A DNA stretch of 64,000 bases from an uncultured Chloroflexia bacterium (lineage in GTDB: Bacteria; Chloroflexota; Limnocylindria; Limnocylindrales; CSP1-4): the NCBI GenBank assembly GCA_963813535.1, contig CAWEZH010000002.1, positions 1,728,001-1,792,000 of the forward strand. Direction: 5' to 3'. Both the position numbers and the translations under genes were made by a program. Shown here one piece after another: positions 887 through 9,479 of the stretch. The notes below the pieces were generated by a model. The model ran no database searches, was not told the origin of the DNA, and saw only the letters and a program-made list of their open reading frames with translations. The number at the start of each line of letters is the position of its first letter. Position 1 is the stretch's first letter.

Positions 887-1001
887 CGATCCCTCCACCT
901 CCCCAGCACGCGCGATGCCCCGAGGATACGCCGGGGGCCGAGGCGAGATCGTGGGCGAATCGCGTCTGGACGCGGCGGCAGCGACCCGCCACGATGCGCC
1001 C

Positions 1002-1856
1002 GTGCCCCGTCTGCAGCGCAAGTCGTTCGAGCATCCCGATACGGTCCGCACGTTCCCCTTCGGACGGCTCGACGTGATCAACCTCGACGAGATGGCCATC
1101 GGCCGTTTCGTCTGTCGCCCTGGCTGGCGATGGTCCGATGCCGTGAAGCCGCTGATGGGGACCGACAGCTGCCAGCTGCGGCATATCGGCTATGTCATCG
1201 CCGGCACGCTCCATGTCCAGATGGACGACGGCATCGAGGTCGACATCCGCCCGAACGACGCGTACGAGATCCCGCCCGGCCACGACGCGTGGGTCGTCGG
1301 CGATGTCGACTGGGATACCGTCGAGTTCACCAGCGGGCGTGTCTTTGCGGCCCCGGCCGAAGACCTCGGTGAGCGGACCCTCGCGACGATCCTGTTCACC
1401 GACATCGTCGATTCGACCGCGACGCTGGTCCGCATCGGGGACGCGGCCTGGCGCCGGACCCTCCTCGACCACAACACCCGGATGCGTGGCGTCCTCGACC
1501 GTCACCGCGGCCGGGAGATCGGCACGACCGGCGACGGGTTCCTGGCCCGCTTCGACGGTGCGGCCCGGGCCGTCCGCTGTGCTGCCGAGATGATCGCTGC
1601 CGTCGAGGACCTCGGGATCGCCCTCCGGGCGGGGTTGCATACGGGCGAGGTCGAGCTGGTCGCGGGCAACGTCCGCGGAGTCGCGGTCCACGCGGCCGCA
1701 CGCGTCGCGGCCCTGGCCGGGCCTGGCGAGGTGCTGGTCTCGCAGACGACCCACGACCTGCTCGACGGATCCGGCCTGCACTTCGAGGACCGCGGCCGGC
1801 ACGAGCTCAAGGGATTGGCCGGCGAGCGCTTGCTCTACGCGCTCGTCGACGGTTAG
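1002..1856 (+). CDS. Cupin domain fused to class III nucleotidyl cyclase
   Basis: N-terminal cupin (PGWRWS, CQLRHIGYV, IPPGHDAWVVG). Cyclase motifs TILFTDIVDST, TTGDGF, RAGLHTGEV, GVAVHAAARV and ELKG. GTG start at 1002. Confidence 0.85.
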   Translation: MPRLQRKSFEHPDTVRTFPFGRLDVINLDEMAIGRFVCRPGWRWSDAVKPLMGTDSCQLRHIGYVIAGTLHVQMDDGIEVDIRPNDAYEIPPGHDAWVVGDVDWDTVEFTSGRVFAAPAEDLGERTLATILFTDIVDSTATLVRIGDAAWRRTLLDHNTRMRGVLDRHRGREIGTTGDGFLARFDGAARAVRCAAEMIAAVEDLGIALRAGLHTGEVELVAGNVRGVAVHAAARVAALAGPGEVLVSQTTHDLLDGSGLHFEDRGRHELKGLAGERLLYALVDG

Positions 1857-3022
1857 AGATTCCCGCGGTTCGCCTGCTCGCGCTCGATCGCCTCGAACAG
1901 TGCCTTGAAGTTGCCGACCCCGAAGCCCCGTGAGCCGTGGCGCTCGATGATCTCGAAGAAGAACGTCGGGCGGTCCTGGACCGGTCGCGTGAAGATCTGG
2001 AGCAGGTAGCCCTCTTCGTCCCGATCGGCCTCGATGCCGAGCTCCTCCAGGGTCTCGATGGGCACACCGACGTCACCGACGCGGTCCGCCAGGGTCGCGT
2101 AATACTCGTGGGGTAGCCCCAGGAACTCGACGCCGTTGTCGCGCAGCCGGCGCACCGTGCCAACGATGTCCTCGGTGCGCAGCGCGATGTGCTGGCAGCC
2201 CGGTGATCGATACCAGTCGAGGTACTCCTGGATCTGGCTCTTCTTCTTGCCGGACGCCGGCTCATTGATCGGGAACTTGATGCGTCCGTTGCCGTTGGTC
2301 ATGACCTTCGACATGAGCGCGCTGTAGTCGGTGTGGATGACCTTGTCGTCGTAGTGGATCAGCTGGGCGAAACCCAGCACGTCGCGGTAGAAGTCGACGA
2401 AGGCGTCCATCTGCCCGAGCTCGACATTGCCGACGCAATGGTCGACCTCGAGCAGGCTGAGCCCATCAGCGGCACGCGCCGGCGCTGCGACCTTGCGATA
2501 GCCCGGCGCGAACGAGCCGTGGTAGTCGCGTCGGTCGACGAACGAGTGGAGCGTCTCGCCGTATGTGCGGATCGAGGATTTGCGCAGCACGCCGTCCTCG
2601 CCGCCGTCGAGCTCGGTCGGCTCCAGCGCCGACGTAGCACCGCGCGCAGTCGTCTCGCGCCAGGCCGACTCGACATCGGCCACTCGGAAGCAGATGTCGT
2701 GCACCCCATCGCCGTGCGCCCGGACGTGCTCGGCGATCTCGCCGTCGGGCGTGAGCGGTGCGGTGAACACGAACCGGATGTCGTTCTGGACCATGACGTA
2801 GCTCGCGCGGTCGCGAAGCTTGGTTTCGAGCCCGCTGAACGCGACCGGGGTGAAGCCCCACAGCGCCCGGTAATAGGCCGACGCCTGCCGGGCGTTGCCG
2901 ACCCAGAACTCGACATGGTCGATGCCGTCGAGGGGGAGGAAGTCTCCGGCCTTTGCGTAGGCGTCCGTATCGACCCGGGCGCCGGCCTGGTTGGCCGCGC
3001 CTCGCGGGAGCGTCTCGGTCAT
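1853..3022 (-). CDS. hppD: 4-hydroxyphenylpyruvate dioxygenase
   Basis: DHVEFWVGNARQA, HGDGV, DHCVGNV, KFPINEP, SQIQEYL, QHIAL, YLLQIFT, FFEIIER and GFGVGNFKALFEAIEREQ. Confidence 0.96.
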   Translation of the reverse strand: MTETLPRGAANQAGARVDTDAYAKAGDFLPLDGIDHVEFWVGNARQASAYYRALWGFTPVAFSGLETKLRDRASYVMVQNDIRFVFTAPLTPDGEIAEHVRAHGDGVHDICFRVADVESAWRETTARGATSALEPTELDGGEDGVLRKSSIRTYGETLHSFVDRRDYHGSFAPGYRKVAAPARAADGLSLLEVDHCVGNVELGQMDAFVDFYRDVLGFAQLIHYDDKVIHTDYSALMSKVMTNGNGRIKFPINEPASGKKKSQIQEYLDWYRSPGCQHIALRTEDIVGTVRRLRDNGVEFLGLPHEYYATLADRVGDVGVPIETLEELGIEADRDEEGYLLQIFTRPVQDRPTFFFEIIERHGSRGFGVGNFKALFEAIEREQANRGNL

Positions 3023-3129
3023 CGCGCGTTCTCCCCTGCATGCGGGGTCCGGCCCCGGCTGGGCATGCGCCCCTGCCGCGGCGTCCTTCAGTGCTCCCAT
3101 CGTACGCCGCGCATGCCACACTGGCTGGC

Positions 3130-3624
3130 ATGAGCGGTGACCTCGAACGCCTCGCCGCGGCCCGGCGTGCATACGCCGATCTGGCACCCCGGGTGATGGC
3201 CGGCGAGCCTTGGCCGCTGGCCGAGGACTACGGCACCGGACCCGAGGCGTCGTGGGGTCCGCGCGAGGTCCTTGCCCACGTCGAGGAGATGCTCCCGTTC
3301 TGGCTGGGCGAGATGGAGCGCGTCATCGATGGCGACGGCAGAGCCGCCGTGCCCTTCGGGCGGACGGCCGACGACCCGATCCGGATCGGGTTCATCGAGC
3401 GTGATCGCAGCCTGCCGCTGCGCGTGCTGTTCGGGCGCATCGACACCGGGCTGCGGGCGTGGGAGGAGCGCATCCCCACGCTCACCGATGCCGAGTCGGC
3501 GCGTGTCGGTGCCCACCCTCGTCTCGGGGAGATGCCGGCACCGGCGATCCTCGAACAATTCGTGATCGGCCACGCCGAGGACCACATCGCCCAGCTCAGC
3601 GACATCATCGCCGCCCGGGGCTGA
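3130..3624 (+). CDS. DinB/YfiT superfamily protein
   Basis: WGPREVLAHVEE (first His), HPRLGEM, and C-terminal GHAEDHIAQL (HxxxH). Confidence 0.8.
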   Translation: MSGDLERLAAARRAYADLAPRVMAGEPWPLAEDYGTGPEASWGPREVLAHVEEMLPFWLGEMERVIDGDGRAAVPFGRTADDPIRIGFIERDRSLPLRVLFGRIDTGLRAWEERIPTLTDAESARVGAHPRLGEMPAPAILEQFVIGHAEDHIAQLSDIIAARG

Positions 3625-3635
3625 CGGCCGACCAC

Positions 3636-4193
3636 GTGTTCGTCCTCCTCGCCGTCCCGGTCGGCGTCATCCTCGGGTTCCTCATCGGCGGTCGGCTAGA
3701 GCGGCTCTCGCAGATCCACTTCGAGTGGGCGTGGCTGGCCGTCGCCGGTCTCGGGACACAGATCCTCCTCTTCTCGACGTCCCTCGGCGAGTCCTTCACG
3801 GGTGGCGTGGGTGAGGCGATCTACGTCGCCTCGACGGGTGCGGTCCTCGTCGCGGTCTGGCGGAACCTGGCGATCCCGGGCCTTGCCCTGGTCGCGCTCG
3901 GGGCGATCTCGAACCTTGCGGCGATCGTGGCGAACGGCGGCGTGATGCCGACCACGGTCGAAGCGATGACGGCGGCCGGGCTCGACCCGCTCGAGGGCTT
4001 CTCCAACAGCGCCATTCTTGAAGATCCCGCGCTGGCGCCGCTCACCGACATCTTCGCCTTGCCGGCCGGGCTGCCGTTCTCGAACGTGTTCAGCATCGGC
4101 GACGTCCTGATCGCGCTCGGCATCGTCCTGGTGATCGCCATCGGGATGCGTCGGGGCGACCCTCGAACGACCCAGCGACCGTCCTTCGACTGA
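3636..4193 (+). CDS. DUF5317 family membrane protein
   Basis: GGRLERL, PGLALVALGAISNLAAIVANGGVMP, LAPLTDIFALP and NVFSIGDVLI are the family-typical motifs. GTG start at 3636. Confidence 0.85.
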   Translation: MFVLLAVPVGVILGFLIGGRLERLSQIHFEWAWLAVAGLGTQILLFSTSLGESFTGGVGEAIYVASTGAVLVAVWRNLAIPGLALVALGAISNLAAIVANGGVMPTTVEAMTAAGLDPLEGFSNSAILEDPALAPLTDIFALPAGLPFSNVFSIGDVLIALGIVLVIAIGMRRGDPRTTQRPSFD

Positions 4194-4364
4194 CTCGCCG
4201 CGGTTCGCCGTCGAGCGTGCGGCGGTGCTTCGCCGCACCCCAAGCCACTCAGGTCATGGGCGGATGGTACGGATGGCCTATGGCTGCCTGCCTCGTCGTC
4301 CACGTACGTTGCGGTCAGAGAACAACGCCCATCTCCCCTGGACTGACCGAAACGAGGGACCGCG

Positions 4365-4466
4365 ATGAAGAACATCATCAAGTCGGGGACCTTCCGGACG
4401 CTGATGCTCCTGTCCGCGCTCGCCAGCTCCGGCCTCGTGCTGGAAGCGGCGCGCCGCTGGAACTAG
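4365..4466 (+). CDS. 33-aa hydrophobic micropeptide MKNIIKSGTFRTLMLLSALASSGLVLEAARRWN
   Basis: GAGGG RBS 6 nt before the ATG, G/C-ending codons throughout, TAG stop, a candidate -10 (TACGTT) upstream and a hairpin downstream. Confidence 0.75.
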   Translation: MKNIIKSGTFRTLMLLSALASSGLVLEAARRWN

Positions 4467-4516
4467 CCCCGGATCGACCTACGACGCCGGCGCTCGCGCG
4501 CCGGCCTGTTCGAAGA

Positions 4517-4550
4517 CACGCCGGCCGTCCGTCATCGGGCGGCCGTCGTG
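4517..4550. terminator. GC-rich hairpin between the micropeptide and the convergent S9 peptidase
   Basis: cacg-c-cggccgtccg-tcat-cgggcggccg-t-cgtg inverted repeat. There is no clear U-tract. Confidence 0.5.
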
Positions 4551-4566
4551 ATTCCCAGGCGATCTG

Positions 4567-6552
4567 TTAGGAGCGGCCCTCGCCGTCCGGAGGCACGTGG
4601 GTCGTCAGGAAGGTGAGGATCCGCTCGAACGCGTCGCGTCGATTCTCGCGGCGCTCCCAGCCGTGTGCTTCCTCGTCGTACCAATGGACCTCGTGGACCT
4701 TGTCCTCGATCTCGAGCGCCTCGACCATCCGCTCGGTCATCAGCGGCACCACCCGCTTGTCCTTGCGCCCGTGGAGGATGAGCAGCGGCGCCTCGATCCG
4801 CTCGGCCCGGTAGACGGGGGAGCCGCGCCGGTACAGGTCGGCCCGAGCCGGATCGTCGGGCGCGCCCATCATCTTGTGCAGGTCGAGACGACCGACGCGG
4901 TCACCGTGCCGATAGCTCTCGGCGATCTCCGAGTCGCCGTACAGGTCCACGCCGGCTGACCACAGCATCGGCTCCTCGACGAGCGCGGACAGGACCATGT
5001 AACCGCCGTACGAGCCGCCGAAGATCGCGAACCGGCCGTCCGACCAGGGCTGCTCGCCGGCCCATCGCGCGGCGTCGATCAGGTCGTGCACATCGGCGTG
5101 ACCCCACTCCCCGTGATTGGCGTGGCGGAACTCCCGGCCATAGCCGGTCGAGCCGCGGAAGTCGACGTCGAGGAACGCGTACCCGCTCGTCGCCAGCAGG
5201 AGCTTGAACGGCTGGAACGAGCGGTAGGCTTGCCACGTCGGCCCGCCGTGCGGGTAGACGATCGTCGGGACACGCTTGCCACCGCGTTTCCCAGTGGCCG
5301 TCGCCGGCCGCCACAGCGTGCCCTCGACGCGGAGACCGTCACGGGCCGCGATCGCGACCCGCTCGGCAGTCGGCACGCGCCCGGCGGACATCGCCGCGGC
5401 GAGGACGGCTGGCTGCGAGTTGGTGACTTGGCGCGGACGCGATCCCTCGGGGGCCGCGCCCGGGACGGGCAGCAGCCACAGGTCCTGGGGTCGCCGGTCG
5501 CTCTCCCCGATCGCCGCGACCCAGGCTCCGTCGGGCATCCACCCGACCGCGCGCCACACGCCCTCCCACGCCGAGATCCGTGTCGCCTTGGTCGAGGCCG
5601 TCACGGTCCGCGGCGTTTTCGGCGGACGACCTCGACCGCGCTTGGGGGCGGCGCCCTCACCGACGTCGCGAACGAACAGGTCGATGAGGCCGGCGTGGAC
5701 CTCGATATGCACGACGCGGCGGCCGTCGGGTGATGGCAGTGGCGCATACCCGTAGGTGCCGGACGGCTCGCCGTGCTCGCGCTTGCCCTCGGTGAGCGCG
5801 ATCTTGTCGCGGCCATCCGGGGATCGACGGATGACCTGGAACCAGCCGTCCTCGTCGCTGACGTAGAGGAGCGACCCGTCCGGCCCCCAGCGCGCCCCAC
5901 AATCGTGGCTCTTCGAGCCCGCGACGATCCGGGTCTCGCCGGTGGCTGCTTCGACCAGCGCGACCTGCCAGGTGGTGAGGTCATCGGGTGCCTGTTGGCC
6001 GGTCACGGCGAGCTGCGATCCGTCCGGCGACCAGTCGAGTCCGTCGACGTCGAACCCTCCCTTCGTGAGCGCCGTCGGCACCGGCGGCTTGGGCTCGCGT
6101 TGCGGCCGTCCACGGCGCGGGACCGGAGCATCGATGAGCCAGACCTGGCTCCAGCCGCGACGCCGGGAGACGAACGCCAGGCGGCGGCCGTCGGGTGACC
6201 AGCGTGGCTCGCGACCACCGCCCGGCTTGGCGACCACACGAGTGAGTCGCGAACCGTCCGCCTCGACGATCCAGATCTCGTCGTCACGCACGAAGGCGAG
6301 GCGCCGGCCGTCGGGTGACCACTGCGGGTCGCTGACCGCCTTGTCCGACGCCGTGATCTGCGTCGGGGGCGATCCCGTGCCCCGCAGCGACAGGGTGAAG
6401 ACCTGACGCGCCCCGGCCGCTTCGGCGGTGAACGCGACAGTTCGGTCGCGCGGATGGATGCGGAACTCGCGGGGCGGATCGACCGCGACGAGCGCCTCGA
6501 TGGTCAGCCCCGATCCCTTCGTCGCGGGAGCTCCGGACGCCTCCTCCGCCAT
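4567..6552 (-). CDS. S9 family (prolyl oligopeptidase/acylaminoacyl) peptidase with PD40 beta-propeller
   Basis: WSPDG repeats, HGGP, DFRGSTGYG, catalytic GGSYGG, HGRKDKRV and EEAHG. The start overlaps the upstream stop (TGATG). Confidence 0.92.
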   Translation of the reverse strand: MAEEASGAPATKGSGLTIEALVAVDPPREFRIHPRDRTVAFTAEAAGARQVFTLSLRGTGSPPTQITASDKAVSDPQWSPDGRRLAFVRDDEIWIVEADGSRLTRVVAKPGGGREPRWSPDGRRLAFVSRRRGWSQVWLIDAPVPRRGRPQREPKPPVPTALTKGGFDVDGLDWSPDGSQLAVTGQQAPDDLTTWQVALVEAATGETRIVAGSKSHDCGARWGPDGSLLYVSDEDGWFQVIRRSPDGRDKIALTEGKREHGEPSGTYGYAPLPSPDGRRVVHIEVHAGLIDLFVRDVGEGAAPKRGRGRPPKTPRTVTASTKATRISAWEGVWRAVGWMPDGAWVAAIGESDRRPQDLWLLPVPGAAPEGSRPRQVTNSQPAVLAAAMSAGRVPTAERVAIAARDGLRVEGTLWRPATATGKRGGKRVPTIVYPHGGPTWQAYRSFQPFKLLLATSGYAFLDVDFRGSTGYGREFRHANHGEWGHADVHDLIDAARWAGEQPWSDGRFAIFGGSYGGYMVLSALVEEPMLWSAGVDLYGDSEIAESYRHGDRVGRLDLHKMMGAPDDPARADLYRRGSPVYRAERIEAPLLILHGRKDKRVVPLMTERMVEALEIEDKVHEVHWYDEEAHGWERRENRRDAFERILTFLTTHVPPDGEGRS

Positions 6553-7622
6553 CAGCTCCCCGGCCAGCCGCTGGCCACGCACCACCGCCCGACCATCGCG
6601 AGGTGCTTGCGGACGTGCCCGTGATGGCAGTCGTAGACCCAGCTCCAGCCGTCCGGCGAGCGCAGCTCTTCGACCGTCATGGAGGCGACAGCGTCGAGCA
6701 GTCGGACCCGTGCCGCGTCATATCTGACGAGCGTCTCGCGCGAGGATTCGTCGCGACGCGCGGCGACGTGCCGCTCATTCCAGGCATCGATCCCCTCTTC
6801 CGGGTCCGACAGCCAGACATCGGTGTCGCGATGGACCGCGATCGCCCGCGCGCCCTCGTCGAACCAATCCGCGAGGTGCGCCACGTGATCGCGCAACGTC
6901 CAGCCGGGCGTCACATCGGCCTCGAGCCAGCGGTCCTCCGGCAGACCGCGCACGAGGGCGTCGAAGAGCCCATCGGCGGCGGCGACGTCCGCCGCCAGAC
7001 CGGCGTGATCCGCGGGGCGCGGGTCGGCGATGAACGGGTCGCCGTCGATCTGGCGGTCGCGCAGTCGATCGGTCCACGGCTCGACGACCGCAAGGTGGTC
7101 GAGGTAGTGGCCATGGAGCGTGAAGTACACCCAGCCCCACGCGTCGTCGCTCCGGAGCTGGTCGAGCGAGAGCCGGCCGGCGGCTTCGAGCAGCCGAGGC
7201 CTGGATGTCCGGAGTCGGGCGAGGATGGCTGCGCTCGACATCGTCGTCCACGGCGCCCGGCGCCGCTCGTTGAAGCGGTCGAAGTCGCCGCCGTCGTAAT
7301 CGTTGTCGGACGGCCAACGACCGGTCTGGAGGGCGGTACCGACATAGTCGATCGCGAGCTCCTGCCAGTCGGCGAGATGGCCGACGTGCTCAGCCAGCGA
7401 CCAGTCCGGGCCGCCGGCATCCGAGGGCGCCGCGCCCGGCAGGTGCCACGCCGCCTCATCGAGACCCGCCCAGGACGATGTCAGGCGGTCCCACAGCGCA
7501 GCCTCATCGGTCCACGGGTCGCGCGATGGCGAGCGGAGATCGAGAGCTCGCACGTCCCCGAGCGACGCGCGGCGGAGGTCGACCACCGGTGTCGCGAGCG
7601 CGGCCGATCTGCCTCCCGCCAT
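6552..7622 (-). CDS. Tandem DinB/maleylpyruvate-isomerase-like domain protein
   Basis: Two repeats: WSLAEHVGHLADW...DRFNERR...HGHYLDHL and WTLRDHVAHLADW...DAWNERH...HGHVRKHL. The ATG at 7622 is in a TGATG overlap. Confidence 0.8.
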   Translation of the reverse strand: MAGGRSAALATPVVDLRRASLGDVRALDLRSPSRDPWTDEAALWDRLTSSWAGLDEAAWHLPGAAPSDAGGPDWSLAEHVGHLADWQELAIDYVGTALQTGRWPSDNDYDGGDFDRFNERRRAPWTTMSSAAILARLRTSRPRLLEAAGRLSLDQLRSDDAWGWVYFTLHGHYLDHLAVVEPWTDRLRDRQIDGDPFIADPRPADHAGLAADVAAADGLFDALVRGLPEDRWLEADVTPGWTLRDHVAHLADWFDEGARAIAVHRDTDVWLSDPEEGIDAWNERHVAARRDESSRETLVRYDAARVRLLDAVASMTVEELRSPDGWSWVYDCHHGHVRKHLAMVGRWCVASGWPGS

Positions 7623-8492
7623 CAGGCGGTCGGCCGCGGCTTGCCGTCGCGCGACGTCAAGCTGGGCTTCGAGCTGATCGCCAAGTTCGACGGTGCGGCG
7701 GAATGCCGCCCAGACCGCCTCCGACAGCACGGTCCGCAGGCGCCCGCTTTCGAGCTCATGGAGGGCCGCCGCAGAGGTGCCGCCGGGCGACGTGACCATG
7801 TTCCGCAGCTCGGCCGGATGCATGCCCGACTGGCGTGCGAACACCGTCGAACCCTCGAGCGTCTCGATGACGAGGTCATGCGCGATGTGGCGCGGGAACC
7901 CGAGGTGGACGGCGGCGTCGATGAGCGCCTCCATGACGAGGAACACATATGTCGGGCCGGTGCCGCTGACGGCGGTCGCCATCGCGACCATCTTCTCGTC
8001 ATCCACCTCGAGCTGGTGCCCGAGAGCGCCGAGCAGGGCGGCGGCCTGCGCACGTTGCGTTTCCGTCGTCTCGGGCGTGGCATACCAGACCGTCACGCCC
8101 TTCCCGAGGCGGGCCGGCGTGTTGGGCATGCTGCGCACGACCTGGTCGTGCCCGAGGATGCCGGTCAGGGCCGCGGTCGTGGCGCCGGCCAGGACGCTCA
8201 GGACCAACTGCCCGCGACGCAGGTGCGGGCCGATGTCGCGGCCGACGCGGTCCAGCATCTGCGGCTTGATCCCGAGCAGGATCACGTCGGCGTCGCGGAC
8301 CGCGTCCGCGTTGGCGCTGACGGTGCGGATGCCGTACTCGCGCTCGAGTGCCTCTCGGCGCTCGGCGCGCGGATGGCTGGCGACGACGCGCTCGGGTCCG
8401 ACGAGGCCGTCGCGGAGCAGGCCCGCGATCATCGCCTCGGCCATCACCCCCGAGCCGACCGTCGCGATCGTGGCTTTCGACAGGGGCGACAC
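7622..8492 (-). CDS. proC: Pyrroline-5-carboxylate reductase (apparent +1 insertion near the 3' end)
   Basis: GSGVMAEAM, GIKPQ, VRSMPNTPA, TAVSGTGPTY and VTSPGGTS. Removing one base at 7664-7666 restores a TGA at 7622-7624. Confidence 0.92.
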
Positions 8493-8498
8493 GGCCGG

Positions 8499-8504
8499 AG
8501 TATA
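8499..8504 (-). promoter_or_regulatory. -10 element (TATACT) of a leaderless-type proC promoter
   Basis: Minus strand reads GGC-TATACT-ccggcc-GTG, with no SD between the element and the start. Confidence 0.65.
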
Positions 8505-8539
8505 GCCACGGCCCCCGGCCGACCCGCGATGCCGGACCG

Positions 8540-9479
8540 TCAGGTAGGGCCAGGCGCTGCGCGTGCCGTTCCGAGCAAGGAAGAAGCGGCCGGTGGTCGT
8601 GATGTCGATGTCGTCGAAGCCGGCGGCCTCCAGCGCGCGCGCGAGCTCATCCGGCGCGTAGAACACCTTCACGATCGTGAACTCCCGGCCGTCGTCCAGC
8701 CGACGGGTCGACCGATCGTCAGCGGGTTCGGCGTGGTCGGCGGCACCGGATGCCGGATCCGCGAGCGAATCGATGAACGCGATCCGACCGCCCGCCTTCA
8801 GCCAGCGCCGGGCGATGGCCAGGGACTCCGCGAGTCGCTCGCGCGGGACGTGGCTGAGCCAGAACCCCATGAACAGGCCGTCGACCGCACGATCGGGCTC
8901 CGACCACGCGTCGCGCACGTGCAGGTGCGCCCGGAGTCCGTGAGCAACCAGGCGTTCACGCGCCCGGTCGAGCGCAGCCGGCGAGGCGTCGTACAGCGAA
9001 AGCTCGCCCCTGGACGCCAGCAATGGCGACCACCAGCCGGTCCCGGCGGCGAGCTCCACGATCTCACCGGCCCATGGCAGGGCGTCCAGCCAGCGCCCGG
9101 CGGCGTCCAGCTCGGCGTTCCATGCCGCGTCGTGGATCGCGCCGCGCGCGTAGCGACCACGGCGGAGGTACCAATCGTCGTACTCGGGCGCCCGGGCCTC
9201 GTAGTACTCGACCATCTGGGCGTCGAGGTCGGCATCGCGGCGCCGGTCCTCCGGTTCCCGTTCCGCCACGACCACAGCCGCCGCCGCGGTCCCGTCGCCG
9301 CGGGCTGCGGCGGCCCGCTCCCCCAGGGCCTGTCGCAACCGGAAGCGCAGGAACCCGTTGTCGCCAGCCTTGCCGACACAGTCCGGGCAGAGTTGCGCCC
9401 ACCCTTCGAGGTCGTCCGACGAACGCGTGGCATAGGTAGTCCCGCACCACAGGCACGAGAAGGACGCCAGGAAGGGCAC
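8540..9479 (-). CDS. Class I SAM-dependent methyltransferase with N-terminal CxxC...CxxC module (apparent +1 insertion near the 3' end)
   Basis: CLWC...CPDC, YYEARAPEYDDWY, motif I VELAAGTGWW, GFWLSHVP and IVKVFY. Removing one base at 8577-8578 gives the ending FFLLGTARAAPGPT-stop. Confidence 0.85.

What the first reader, a model, noticed from the sequence alone, without database searches (positions are those of the whole stretch)
3636..4550. DUF5317 membrane protein followed by an unannotated 33-aa 'RRW' micropeptide: candidate peptide-processing/signalling module
Seen: 171 nt after DUF5317, on the same strand, is MKNIIKSGTFRTLMLLSALASSGLVLEAARRWN. It has its own RBS, a candidate -10, host-like codon use and a downstream hairpin. 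The layout is basic N-terminus, hydrophobic core, small-residue stretch and a short Trp-containing tail, like a signal-peptide-type precursor. DUF5317 carries family-typical polar residues in or near membrane segments (SN..NGG.MP, D, SIGD), which suggests an enzyme. Inference: DUF5317 cleaves, modifies or exports the peptide, by analogy to AgrB/AgrD. From memory and unverified, DUF5317 genes often neighbour HD-GYP/GGDEF sensors that could be the receptors; none is adjacent here.
Basis: partly seen in the sequence, partly recalled or inferred. Interest (0 to 1): 0.82.

Follow-up and report, generated by a model that had tools for sequence, protein, structure and literature searches.

The report
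Small membrane protein paired with DUF5317
The 33-codon reading frame is a real, conserved gene for a tiny one-helix membrane protein that sits beside the five-helix membrane protein DUF5317 across the phylum Chloroflexota, often next to cyclic-di-GMP enzymes or regulators, so two proteins of unknown function can now be studied as one unit.

Summary
Window 3636-4193 is DUF5317 (Pfam E 1.3e-27). After a 171-nt gap, 4365-4466 is a 33-aa ORF with a Shine-Dalgarno-like GAGGGA, 32 of 33 codons ending in G or C, and two strong downstream hairpins.

The ORF behaves as a gene:
- It is a conservation island in variable spacer.
- Median pN/pS is 0.61 in its frame, against 1.24 and 1.44 in the other frames.
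- A profile finds 155 cluster representatives among 1.84 billion proteins. In the 150 listed, nearly all matches end at or within about three residues of the protein's C-terminus.
- No Pfam or NCBIfam family matches it.

The link to DUF5317 is strong but not obligatory:
- 49 of 78 genuine peptide sites in 301 class genomes lie directly downstream of a short DUF5317.
- 38 of 80 DUF5317-selected loci carry the peptide.
- In some genera the order is flipped.
- In other Chloroflexota classes, 21 of 40 DUF5317 loci have an analogous small one-helix ORF alongside, about 21-fold above background.

Neighbours or fusion partners are GGDEF-EAL, HD-GYP-type, TPR-BTAD and MFS proteins; in this window the neighbour is DinB_2.

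Best reading: a dedicated membrane partner of DUF5317 in a signalling or transport module. Cleavage or export by DUF5317, as in AgrB/AgrD, is neither shown nor excluded. Likeness to LspA is weak. No transcript evidence was obtained.

The parts
3130..3624 (+). DinB_2 superfamily gene, 11 nt upstream of DUF5317 and probably in the same operon
   Evidence: PF12867 E 1.1e-5, 26.3 bits against cut-off 24.8. DinB lies directly upstream of DUF5317 in 56 of 80 DUF5317-selected loci.
3636..4193 (+). Stand-alone DUF5317: a 185-aa membrane protein with five predicted helices and a conserved acidic/polar loop at residues 100-153
   Evidence: PF17248 E 1.3e-27. AlphaFold2 model with pLDDT 86.9 and pTM 0.81, helices 3-16, 32-46, 58-75, 83-99 and 154-173. 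Core residues including D138 and D156 are the same in all of 167 sequences.
4217..4238 (+). 9-bp GC hairpin just after the DUF5317 stop codon; possible attenuator or terminator (inferred)
   Evidence: Seen in the fold of 4194-4364. The whole spacer is not unusually structured (z -0.98).
4266..4280 (+). Conserved 15-nt island in the spacer upstream of the small ORF; function unknown, possibly a promoter or operator
   Evidence: Column conservation is 0.91 across 24 syntenic loci, with variable sequence around it. No sigma-70 consensus was found here.
4354..4359 (+). Shine-Dalgarno-like GAGGGA, 5 nt before the ATG
   Evidence: Read from the sequence. Purine-rich AGGG/GGGA motifs sit at the same place in most of the relatives read, weak or absent in a few.
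4365..4466 (+). 33-aa small membrane protein: basic N-terminus, about 20 hydrophobic residues with a small-residue LASS motif, and a C-terminal A-A-R-R-W-N tail
   Evidence: ORF. Alignment A1 has invariant K6, R11, L16, L19, A28 and W32. 155 cluster representatives. pN/pS 0.61 against 1.24 and 1.44 in the other frames. No Pfam or NCBIfam family.
4486..4554 (+). Two GC-rich hairpins between the convergent small ORF and the S9 peptidase gene; likely a two-way transcription stop, without a T-run
   Evidence: -58.5 kcal/mol, z -4.6. Columns are 0.71-0.75 conserved. Not a canonical intrinsic terminator.
4567..6585 (-). S9 prolyl-oligopeptidase-family peptidase with a beta-propeller, convergent to the small ORF; a syntenic neighbour, not in the operon
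   Evidence: Peptidase_S9 E 1.4e-39 and PD40 repeats. Synteny is kept in relatives.

Best explanation
The 33-aa ORF encodes a genuine single-pass small membrane protein. It belongs to an unnamed family whose hallmark is a transmembrane helix ending in small residues ([A/G]-x-G-A-[P/G], here E-A-A) followed by a very short tail that usually carries Trp (here R-R-W-N).

It is the dedicated genetic partner of stand-alone DUF5317, and most likely its physical partner. DUF5317 is a five-helix membrane protein with an invariant Asn/Asp-rich loop.

Inferred topology, from the positive-inside rule:
- Peptide: N-terminus in, C-terminus out.
- DUF5317: N-terminus out, C-terminus in.
- The peptide tail and the invariant D138/D156 loop would therefore lie on the same outer face.
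- Peptide plus DUF5317 together look like a split six-helix unit.

The pair is a portable membrane module. By operon or by fusion it is attached to variable partners: membrane-bound GAF-GGDEF-EAL and HD-GYP-type cyclic-di-GMP enzymes, TPR-BTAD regulators, MFS transporters and, in this window's lineage, a DinB_2 protein. I read it as an input or accessory unit for signalling or transport.

Shown: the gene is real, the family exists, the adjacency is conserved and the contexts are as listed. Inferred: physical contact, topology and role.
For: Coding:
- Conservation island.
- Frame-specific pN/pS of 0.61 against 1.24 and 1.44 over 31 distinct sequences.
- Pairs with identical proteins but different DNA.
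- Shine-Dalgarno-like motif and stop position kept in relatives.
- 155 representatives at E<=1e-3. Of the 150 listed, nearly all matches end at or within about three residues of the protein's C-terminus.

Linkage within the class:
- 49 of 78 genuine peptide sites have a short DUF5317 directly upstream on the same strand.
- 3 more have DUF5317 nearby in another arrangement.
- 38 of 80 DUF5317-selected loci have the peptide directly downstream, and 3 more are DUF-peptide-DUF.

Order flipped but adjacency kept:
- 7 loci of three genera have a divergent ...AAPFRW peptide just upstream of DUF5317.
- Their DUF5317 genes form one clade with 99% support.
- Peptide subtype tracks the DUF5317 tree: 24 changes against 64.3 in shuffles, as few in 0 of 200.

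Other Chloroflexota classes:
- 21 of 40 short DUF5317 loci have a 29-48 aa one-helix ORF within about 280 nt on the same strand. Those found by the rule, and most read, have a Shine-Dalgarno-like motif.
- 7 more have a profile-matching ORF 1-2 kb away. In 5 of these an HD_5 gene lies between the two.
- Density is 0.82 per kb near DUF5317 against 0.039 per kb elsewhere.

Module logic:
- Operons of GAF-GGDEF-EAL, then DUF5317, then one or two peptide genes.
- DUF5317 occurs fused to MFS, to EAL, and to HD plus GGDEF plus MFS.
- Among 30 upstream genes in other classes, 14 carry BTAD (13 also TPR) and 9 carry HD_5.
- The helix sequence is closely conserved across three distant loci, with ...AIAALA[I/M]A[S/A]GAP in L218, L223 and L228. 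That fits specific helix packing.
Against: - The pair is not obligatory.
  - 32 of 56 DinB-DUF5317 loci have no hydrophobic small ORF within 900 nt downstream.
  - In one genus (g7), 0 of 9 genomes matched the peptide profile, although short DUF5317 forms were found in at least five of them.
- The peptide outlives DUF5317 at the DinB-S9 locus at 10 sites. Paralogous subfamilies sit in unrelated contexts at 15 sites. Four of those genomes showed only one DUF5317 match, in a 725-760 aa frame like the MFS-fused form.
- DUF5317's invariant residues are equally conserved with or without a neighbouring peptide gene.
- Related genomes are not independent, so the counts overstate the number of independent events.
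- pN/pS of 0.61 indicates only moderate constraint.
- No transcript or protein evidence exists for the small ORF.
- Physical contact has not been shown by any result here.
Confidence: 0.6

Rival explanations
1. Pro-peptide signal. The small protein is a precursor. DUF5317 acts as an intramembrane, possibly LspA-like, aspartyl protease or exporter. It cuts at the conserved small-residue junction and releases the short lineage-specific C-terminal tail as a signal. That signal is read by the neighbouring TPR-BTAD, HD-GYP or GGDEF-EAL proteins.
For: - The layout is signal-peptide-like: a conserved G-A-(P/G) junction followed by short tails that differ between lineages (RRW, FRW, ESWPAP, DGGISPH).
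- Tandem paralogous peptide genes occur.
- TPR-containing regulators lie directly upstream in 13 of 30 other-class loci. By recall, this resembles Rgg/SHP-type arrangements.
- DUF5317-MFS fusions resemble, by recall, peptidase-exporter fusions.
- D138 and D156 are invariant in 167 of 167 sequences.
- 7 of 31 DUF5317 proteins give weak Peptidase_A8 hits, best E 0.013.
- The LspA structure 5dir_A aligns at Z 5.6, rmsd 2.9 over 92 residues, with 22% identity, the highest identity in the list.
- The FxxGD motif aligns with LspA's FNxAD.
Against: - Profile-profile comparison with LspA is negative: probability 1.4% and 2.4%.
- Z 5.6 lies inside the background for helical models, and Foldseek found nothing.
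- The position of LspA's first catalytic Asp is not conserved in DUF5317.
- The hydrophobic stretch of about 20 residues and its sequence conservation fit a stable anchor better than a leader.
- E at -3 here, or Pro at +1 in other classes, are poor signal-peptidase contexts (established rule, recalled).
- DUF5317 is frequently fused to cyclic-di-GMP domains, as sensor domains are.
- Many DUF5317 genes have no peptide gene nearby.
Confidence: 0.22
2. Independent small membrane protein. The adjacency reflects shared regulation or inherited gene order only, and the peptide works alone or with another partner, for example as a membrane-stress protein or a small transporter subunit.
For: - Peptide paralogues occur in at least two other conserved contexts without DUF5317 within 3 kb.
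- DinB-peptide-S9 loci lack DUF5317 at 10 sites.
- All combinations occur at this locus: DUF5317 with the peptide, DUF5317 alone and the peptide alone.
- A 171-nt spacer with a hairpin and a conserved island suggests the peptide gene has its own transcription unit.
Against: - Adjacency survives a flip in gene order, duplication into paralogous loci and class-level divergence.
- In other classes the small ORF's stop abuts the DUF5317 start, for example in L211, L214 and L220. That suggests translational coupling.
- The enrichment near DUF5317 is about 21-fold.
Confidence: 0.13
3. Not a gene: a chance ORF or a conserved non-coding element such as a small RNA or terminator region.
For: - The ORF is very short.
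- No RNA contig covered it.
- High-GC genomes carry many spurious open frames.
Against: - Frame-specific constraint.
- Conserved start, stop and Shine-Dalgarno-like motif.
- Protein-level homologues down to about 40% identity, with conservative substitutions.
- No Rfam match in 4194-4566.
Confidence: 0.04

Closest known systems
MgrB-PhoQ, SafA-PhoQ and AcrZ-AcrB type small membrane proteins (recalled, not tested)
   Same: A protein of 30-50 aa with one membrane helix, encoded near a larger membrane sensor or transporter and acting through helix-helix contact. Small-residue motifs lie in the helix.
   Different: No sequence relation. The partner here is DUF5317, whose function is unknown. Adjacency here is conserved across a whole phylum. 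Binding has not been shown.
AgrB/AgrD peptide maturation
   Same: A small peptide gene beside a multi-pass membrane protein, in a setting that also holds signalling proteins.
   Different: Neither protein matches any other Pfam family above threshold, AgrB and AgrD included. There is no Cys for a thiolactone. The peptide's helix and tail are conserved rather than hypervariable. No histidine kinase is adjacent in this window.
Lipoprotein signal peptidase LspA (Peptidase_A8; PDB 5dir, 6ryo)
   Same: - A small polytopic membrane protein with an invariant Asp at the outer start of the last helix, in an F-x-x-[A/G]-D motif.
- Weak HMM hits in 7 of 31 members.
- A structural alignment at Z 5.6 with 22% identity.
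- The proposed substrate would be signal-peptide-like, with a lipobox-like small-residue junction.
   Different: - Scores fall below the Pfam cut-off (best hit E 0.013 among 31 members; 10.5 bits against 25 for the window's protein).
- hhalign is negative.
- The first catalytic Asp motif, GNxxDR, is absent.
- DUF5317 has five helices, not four.
- The peptides have no lipobox Cys.
- The genome carries its own LspA.
Rgg/SHP and ComR/ComS-type peptide signalling (recalled)
   Same: A short hydrophobic peptide gene next to a TPR-containing regulator. By recall, the active part there is the C-terminal tail, often containing Trp.
   Different: - The regulators here are BTAD plus TPR, not the helix-turn-helix plus TPR of that family.
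- They are absent from this window.
- No Opp or Eep link was examined.
- Processing is unknown.
Membrane sensor domains fused to GGDEF, EAL or HD-GYP domains, of the MASE and 5TMR-LYT type (recalled)
   Same: DUF5317 is a five-helix membrane domain found fused or adjacent to EAL, GGDEF and HD_5 domains.
   Different: It is most often stand-alone or fused to MFS transporters, and it has its own small protein partner. No ligand is known.

Membership tests
DUF5317 (PF17248) | Pfam HMM score above the gathering threshold over the full domain | tested here: met
   97.1 bits against 25, residues 26-167 matching profile positions 1-150 of 151.
DUF5317 (PF17248) | Family-wide invariant residues: SN, NGG.MP, LTD and FS.GD | tested here: met
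   N93, M104, P105, D138, G155 and D156 are the same in all 167 sequences, including 39 from other classes.
Peptidase_A8 / LspA | Pfam HMM score above the gathering threshold | tested here: not met
   10.5 bits against 25 for the window's protein. 7 of 31 members give hits, best E 0.013.
Peptidase_A8 / LspA | Two catalytic Asp residues in the GNxxDR and FNxAD motifs (motifs seen in alignment A3; their catalytic role is recalled) | tested here: not met
   The second motif has a counterpart, FS.GD with D156. The first does not: S or Q sits at the Asp position where TM1 aligns.
Peptidase_A8 / LspA | Shared fold | tested here: inconclusive
   5dir_A scores Z 5.6, rmsd 2.9, 92 residues, 22% identity, at rank 17, inside the background for helical models. 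Foldseek found none. hhalign gave probability 1.4% and 2.4%.
AgrB / AgrD | Sequence membership of the membrane protein in AgrB and of the peptide in AgrD | tested here: not met
   Pfam scans at E up to 10 list no Agr family for DUF5317. A scan at E up to 1 lists none for the peptide, only Pardaxin at E 0.47.
AgrB / AgrD | Cys in the peptide for thiolactone formation, and an adjacent histidine kinase receptor (recalled features) | tested here: not met
   The 33 aa contain no Cys. The neighbours are DinB_2 and an S9 peptidase.
Bacterial lipoprotein signal peptide | Lipobox ending in Cys | tested here: not met
   None of the 10 sequences of A1 has a Cys. Among the 150 representatives and the locus peptides read, Cys is rare and never at a fixed lipobox position.
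Rgg/SHP-type (RRNPP) peptide signalling | Peptide gene adjacent to a cytoplasmic TPR receptor-regulator | tested here: inconclusive
   Not in this window. In other classes 13 of 30 upstream genes carry TPR plus BTAD. Whether they belong to the RRNPP family was not tested.
Small membrane-protein partner of a larger membrane protein | Physical binding to the partner | not testable with these tools
   No result here bears on binding. Genetic linkage only.
Known small-protein families (Pfam, NCBIfam) | Any curated model above its cut-off | tested here: not met
   No hit for the window's peptide, nor for 10 relatives from other clades. Atlas neighbours are unnamed 33-34 aa clusters.

The most novel reading that the evidence does not exclude
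Chloroflexota carry a phylum-wide peptide signalling system. The small protein is a membrane-anchored pro-peptide. DUF5317 is a new kind of intramembrane aspartyl protease, with D138 and D156 as the catalytic pair and a distant likeness to LspA. It cuts at the conserved G-A-(P/G) junction and releases a 3-12 residue lineage-specific tail. That tail controls cyclic-di-GMP enzymes (GGDEF-EAL, HD-GYP) or TPR-BTAD regulators encoded in the same operons.
Probability: 0.15. Interest if true: 0.9.

Novelty: new variant of a known kind. Interest (0 to 1): 0.64.

Why it matters
DUF5317 is a widespread membrane family. Here it was found in 237 of 301 class genomes and 118 of 401 phylum genomes, and it also registered in the Thermus and Thermotoga control genomes. 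The searched literature contains nothing on it.

This work gives DUF5317:
- a conserved small-protein partner;
- a repeated link to cyclic-di-GMP enzymes, BTAD regulators and MFS transporters;
- two invariant Asp residues to mutate.

It also adds an unnamed small-protein family whose members only some gene callers predict, in a phylum of mostly uncultured soil and freshwater bacteria. If the pair proves to be a signal-input module or a peptide-maturation system, it would be a new route into cyclic-di-GMP control.

Tried and rejected
- Complex prediction of DUF5317 with the peptide gave a score of 0.01 and no verdict, so nothing follows from it.
- Public RNA runs: contigs of three metatranscriptome-type runs lay on parts of the DinB, DUF5317 and S9 genes, but none covered 4180-4503. 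This is not evidence either way.
- A PDB sequence search with the DUF5317 profile gave 0 hits at E<=10. Foldseek against PDB gave no match at E<=0.001.
- Atlas search for DUF5317 with its own family left out gave no usable hit.
- hhalign of DUF5317 against LspA gave 1.4%, and 2.4% with larger alignments.
- Rfam: only three weak hits below gathering score, all inside the DinB or DUF5317 coding sequence.
- The sigma-70 promoter scan found 0 sites. The one terminator-like site is on the minus strand at 4343-4327 and is no more than the shuffles give.
- No natural DUF5317-peptide fusion was found. P0036 looks by eye like a DinB-like protein read through into the peptide, and the other long representatives checked have extensions of no recognisable family.
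- The search for homologous proteins cannot take a 33-aa query.
- Three profile hits were discarded as spurious, being inside long frames with no stop after Trp: G262, G286 and G165. One small ORF in L230 from the enrichment scan was also judged spurious.
- Type I toxin and leader-peptide readings were considered and set aside. No antisense or attenuator evidence was sought, and chromosomal synteny across a phylum with a fixed partner gene does not fit them well.
- Literature: 'DUF5317' 0 papers, 'PF17248' 0 papers, 'Limnocylindria' with 'c-di-GMP' 0 papers.
Full report
**1. What is in the window**

- Positions 3636-4193 (+) encode a 185-aa protein that matches Pfam DUF5317 (PF17248): E 1.3e-27, 97.1 bits against a cut-off of 25.
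- Eleven bases upstream ends a DinB_2 gene (3130-3624, E 1.1e-5).
- After a 171-nt gap lies the 33-aa ORF at 4365-4466.
- An S9 peptidase gene (4567-6585) converges on it from the minus strand.
- The small ORF has GAGGGA 5 nt before its ATG, and 32 of its 33 codons end in G or C.
- Two GC hairpins follow it: -58.5 kcal/mol, z -4.6, no T-run.
- The sigma-70 scan found no promoter in 3400-4800.
- Rfam found nothing in the spacers.
- The peptide matches no Pfam or NCBIfam family.
- Names attached to close DUF5317 homologues and to related contigs place the genome among Candidatus Limnocylindrales/Limnocylindria, phylum Chloroflexota.

**2. Is the small ORF a gene?**

Conservation in relatives:
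- In 41 related genomes the peptide query gave 13 with a match at E<=10. Nine places (eight genomes) were at E<=3.4e-4, with 47-94% identity to the query.
- The frame, the stop one to three codons after the Trp, and a purine-rich motif before the start are kept.
- One assembly, which also has frameshifts in its DUF5317 and DinB genes, has the start out of frame.
- An alignment of ten members has invariant K6, R11, L16, L19, A28 and W32.
- Across 24 syntenic loci the ORF columns are 0.79-0.89 conserved, like the end of DUF5317. The spacer around it is 0.04-0.6 and full of indels.

Selection:
- Pairwise dN/dS in the first ten sequences ranged from 0.31 to 1.09.
- Over 31 distinct nucleotide sequences, median pN/pS was 0.61 in the ORF frame, against 1.24 and 1.44 in the two shifted frames. 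Several pairs differ in DNA but not in protein.

Wider family:
- A profile search of 1.84 billion cluster representatives found 155 at E<=1e-3 and 30 at E<=1e-10.
- Of the 150 listed, nearly all matches end at or within about three residues of the protein's C-terminus.
- The Atlas holds the exact sequence and unnamed 33-34 aa clusters of 52, 434 and 266 members.

I take the gene as real. No transcript evidence could be obtained (section 7).

**3. Association with DUF5317 inside the class**

The peptide profile hit 59 of 301 class genomes: family f1 39 of 91, f4 17 of 103, f3 2 of 92, f2 0 of 12. DUF5317 hit 237 of 301.

I merged tandem copies and read the surroundings. The 81 sites fall as follows:

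| Arrangement | Sites |
|---|---|
| Short DUF5317 directly upstream, same strand | 49 |
| DUF5317, GAF-GGDEF, then peptide | 1 |
| Two peptide genes, GAF-GGDEF-EAL, then DUF5317 | 1 |
| Divergent from a DUF5317 gene | 1 |
| DinB-peptide(-S9) with no DUF5317 | 10 |
| Beside S9 only | 1 |
| Other contexts | 15 |
| Spurious | 3 |

- One 'other' site (G115:C23) has a DUF5317 1.8 kb away on the opposite strand.
- The other contexts include two further peptide subfamilies with their own conserved neighbourhoods.

Starting from DUF5317 instead, I examined 80 loci from a pattern scan of one genome per species. They split as follows:

| Gene upstream of DUF5317 | Loci | With peptide directly downstream |
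|---|---|---|
| DinB | 56 | 24 |
| GGDEF/EAL | 6 | 6 |
| DUF-peptide-DUF arrangement | 3 | counted separately |
| MFS | 2 | 0 (two peptide genes 1.7 kb upstream, opposite strand) |
| Other | 13 | 8 |

- In total 38 of 80 have the peptide directly downstream.
- The 32 DinB-linked loci without it have no hydrophobic small ORF within 900 nt downstream.

**4. Order flipped, adjacency kept; the pair diversifies together**

- I fetched twenty short DUF5317 loci where the profile had found no peptide.
- Seven of them, from three genera, carry a divergent small ORF ending ...AAPFRW plus 0-2 residues just upstream of DUF5317 on the same strand. One carries a weak downstream member. Twelve have none within the 0.5 kb upstream and 2 kb downstream that I fetched.
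- On a DUF5317 tree of 128 distinct rows, peptide subtype follows the tree. Identical sequences and matches under 130 residues were left out. The method was quick LG+G4.
  - 24 changes are needed, against a shuffled mean of 64.3, with 0 of 200 shuffles as low.
  - The upstream-PFRW group is one clade with 99% support.
  - The DUF5317 genes without a peptide form a few clades, consistent with several losses.
- Kin share labels, so this shows inheritance as a unit. It does not show co-evolution in the strict sense.

**5. The same pair in other classes of the phylum**

- The Limnocylindria-type profile is almost confined to the class. It hit 14 of 401 phylum genomes, 13 of them in the class. The one outsider has its hit 1.5 kb upstream of a DUF5317 gene, with an HD_5 gene between them.
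- DUF5317 itself is in 118 of 401 phylum genomes.
- I fetched 40 short-form loci from other classes, chosen from the listed matches by score and open-frame length.
The rule required an ORF of 28-60 aa with a start codon, a Shine-Dalgarno-like tetramer, and a 15-residue hydrophobicity mean of at least 2.2.
- Results across the 40 loci:
  - 21 have a one-helix ORF of 29-48 aa within about 280 nt on the same strand, 20 upstream and 1 downstream.
  - 7 more have a profile-matching ORF 1-2 kb away on the same strand. In five of these an HD_5 (HD-GYP-type) gene lies between peptide and DUF5317.
  - 12 have none.
- By the objective rule alone, the density is 0.82 per kb next to DUF5317 against 0.039 per kb elsewhere in the same loci, about 21-fold. 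This is 19 ORFs near against 14 far, with one of the 19 judged spurious.
- These ORFs share the architecture of the window's peptide: a basic N-terminus, a helix ending in [A/G]-x-G-A-[P/G], then a short tail.
  - Examples of helix end plus tail are ...ASGAPVGGSGF...AAGAPESWPAP and ...GIGAPVDGGISPH.
  - Ten of them match no Pfam or NCBIfam family above cut-off.
  - One of them has 39 homologues, named only 'hypothetical protein'.
- In several loci the small ORF's stop abuts the DUF5317 start.

**6. What the pair is attached to**

- In Limnocylindria paralogous loci, the gene ending right at the DUF5317 start is a GAF-GGDEF-EAL protein with its own multi-helix N-terminal domain. Other upstream genes are an EAL, an MFS and an MMPL protein.
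- The genome's second DUF5317 is fused to an MFS transporter (675 aa).
- Among 33 longer homologues most are DUF5317-MFS fusions. Four combine EAL with DUF5317, and one combines HD_5, HD, GGDEF, MFS and DUF5317.
- In other classes, of 30 same-strand upstream genes scanned, 14 carry BTAD (13 also TPR), 9 HD_5/HD, 4 Peptidase_M20 and 3 MFS.

**7. What DUF5317 looks like**

- The AlphaFold2 model (31-row alignment) has pLDDT 86.9 and pTM 0.81. It shows five long helices and a structured loop at residues 100-153.
- By the positive-inside rule (my inference from the sequence), the N-terminus and the acidic conserved loop face outward and the basic C-tail faces inward. The peptide, with K2, K6 and R11 ahead of the helix, would be N-terminus in and C-terminus out.
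- N93, M104, P105, D138, G155, D156 and G162 are the same in all 167 sequences, including 39 from other classes and 48 without a neighbouring peptide gene. G89 and S153 differ in one or two.
- Searches for known relatives:
  - The PDB sequence search was empty.
  - Foldseek found nothing.
  - The wide structural search peaked at Z 6.8, which is background for helical models. LspA (5dir_A, identity confirmed) came at rank 17: Z 5.6, rmsd 2.9, 92 residues and 22% identity, the highest identity in the list.
  - Seven of 31 DUF5317 proteins give sub-threshold Peptidase_A8 hits, best E 0.013.
  - F-S-x-G-D aligns with LspA's F-N-x-A-D.
  - Profile-profile comparison is negative at 1.4% and 2.4%, and the first catalytic motif has no counterpart.
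- The LspA likeness is a lead, not a finding.
- Complex prediction returned no verdict.
- RNA contigs did not cover the ORF.
- Neither of those two results bears on the claims.

**8. Reading**

Shown:
- A real small-protein gene.
- An unnamed family.
- A phylum-wide, order-independent but non-obligatory adjacency to stand-alone DUF5317.
- Recurrent coupling of the pair to cyclic-di-GMP enzymes, TPR-BTAD regulators and MFS transporters.

Inferred:
- The two proteins contact each other in the membrane. Peptide (N-in, C-out) followed by DUF5317 (N-out) is topologically a split six-helix unit. The closely conserved helix sequence in distant lineages fits specific packing.
- The pair serves as an input or accessory module.

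| Reading | My odds |
|---|---|
| Partner of DUF5317 | 0.60 |
| Independent protein with inherited linkage | 0.13 |
| Not a gene | 0.04 |

Points against an obligate pairing:
- Many DUF5317 genes have no peptide nearby.
- Peptide genes persist at the DinB-S9 locus after DUF5317 is gone.
- Peptide paralogues sit elsewhere.
- DUF5317's invariant residues do not depend on a neighbouring peptide gene.

**9. Novelty and limits**

- Full-text searches for 'DUF5317' and 'PF17248' each found 0 papers, and 'Limnocylindria' together with 'c-di-GMP' found 0. Subscription journals and supplements are outside that library.
- Counts come from related genomes and overstate the number of independent events.
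- Tallies include 11 and 1 unpublished genomes respectively. No locus or sequence from them was used.
- DUF5317 loci outside Chloroflexota were not examined.

Noticed in passing
G000:C2:519915-520328 (locus L109:1501-1914): The genome's only LspA match reads GNMADQ and FNLAN, where the 13 aligned relatives have GN..DR and FN.AD. The second conserved Asp, recalled as catalytic, is Asn here. This may be an assembly error, or the enzyme may be inactive.
   Followed up: no
window 4266-4280: A 15-nt island (GGTACGGATGGCCTA) is 0.91 conserved across 24 syntenic loci, inside an otherwise variable spacer upstream of the small ORF. No sigma-70 consensus lies here. It may be a promoter or operator element.
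   Followed up: partly
L181:3297-3508; also L195, L205, L197 and several sites: Many DUF5317 loci carry two peptide genes in tandem. They are often of two different subtypes, a VKANLARFT...GAG.RW type followed by an MK..RSQ.FR...EAG.RW type.
   Followed up: partly
L053, L058, L060, L064, L067, L069; and L059, L061, L066, L068, L073: Two further peptide subfamilies also end in [K/R]RW. One, beginning MK[ST][TM].KWYA.RA and ending ..[AG]KRW, lies in a conserved locus whose neighbours look, by eye, like ProC and an aldolase. The other...W[RH][VIT]A..L.P...[IFL]AL.L.A.[RK]RW, lies near ORFs that look, by eye, like AlaX, a lipoprotein and a large regulator. Neither has DUF5317 within 3 kb.
   Followed up: partly
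G000:C3:759930-761957 (L119:231-2258): The second DUF5317 of this genome is the N-terminal domain of a 675-aa MFS_1/MFS_3 transporter. Open frames of about 580-930 aa holding a DUF5317 match recur in most genomes of the class, and many of those genomes have no other DUF5317 match.
   Followed up: partly
window 915-1856 (+) and 1853-3187 (-): A cupin plus class III nucleotidyl cyclase protein and a two-domain glyoxalase/HPPD-like dioxygenase lie upstream of the DinB-DUF5317 unit. No link to the finding was seen.
   Followed up: no
window 6552-9479 (-): A 975-aa open frame overlaps an even longer plus-strand frame. By eye its translation contains ProC-like and DinB-like stretches. It was not scanned.
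   Followed up: no
L240:3031-4365 and L177, L179, L181, L184: The cyclic-di-GMP enzymes next to DUF5317 have their own N-terminal multi-helix domains. This is MASE9 in one HD_5 protein. In the GAF-GGDEF-EAL proteins it is an unnamed domain with FNLANY...SGGAPQF motifs.
   Followed up: no
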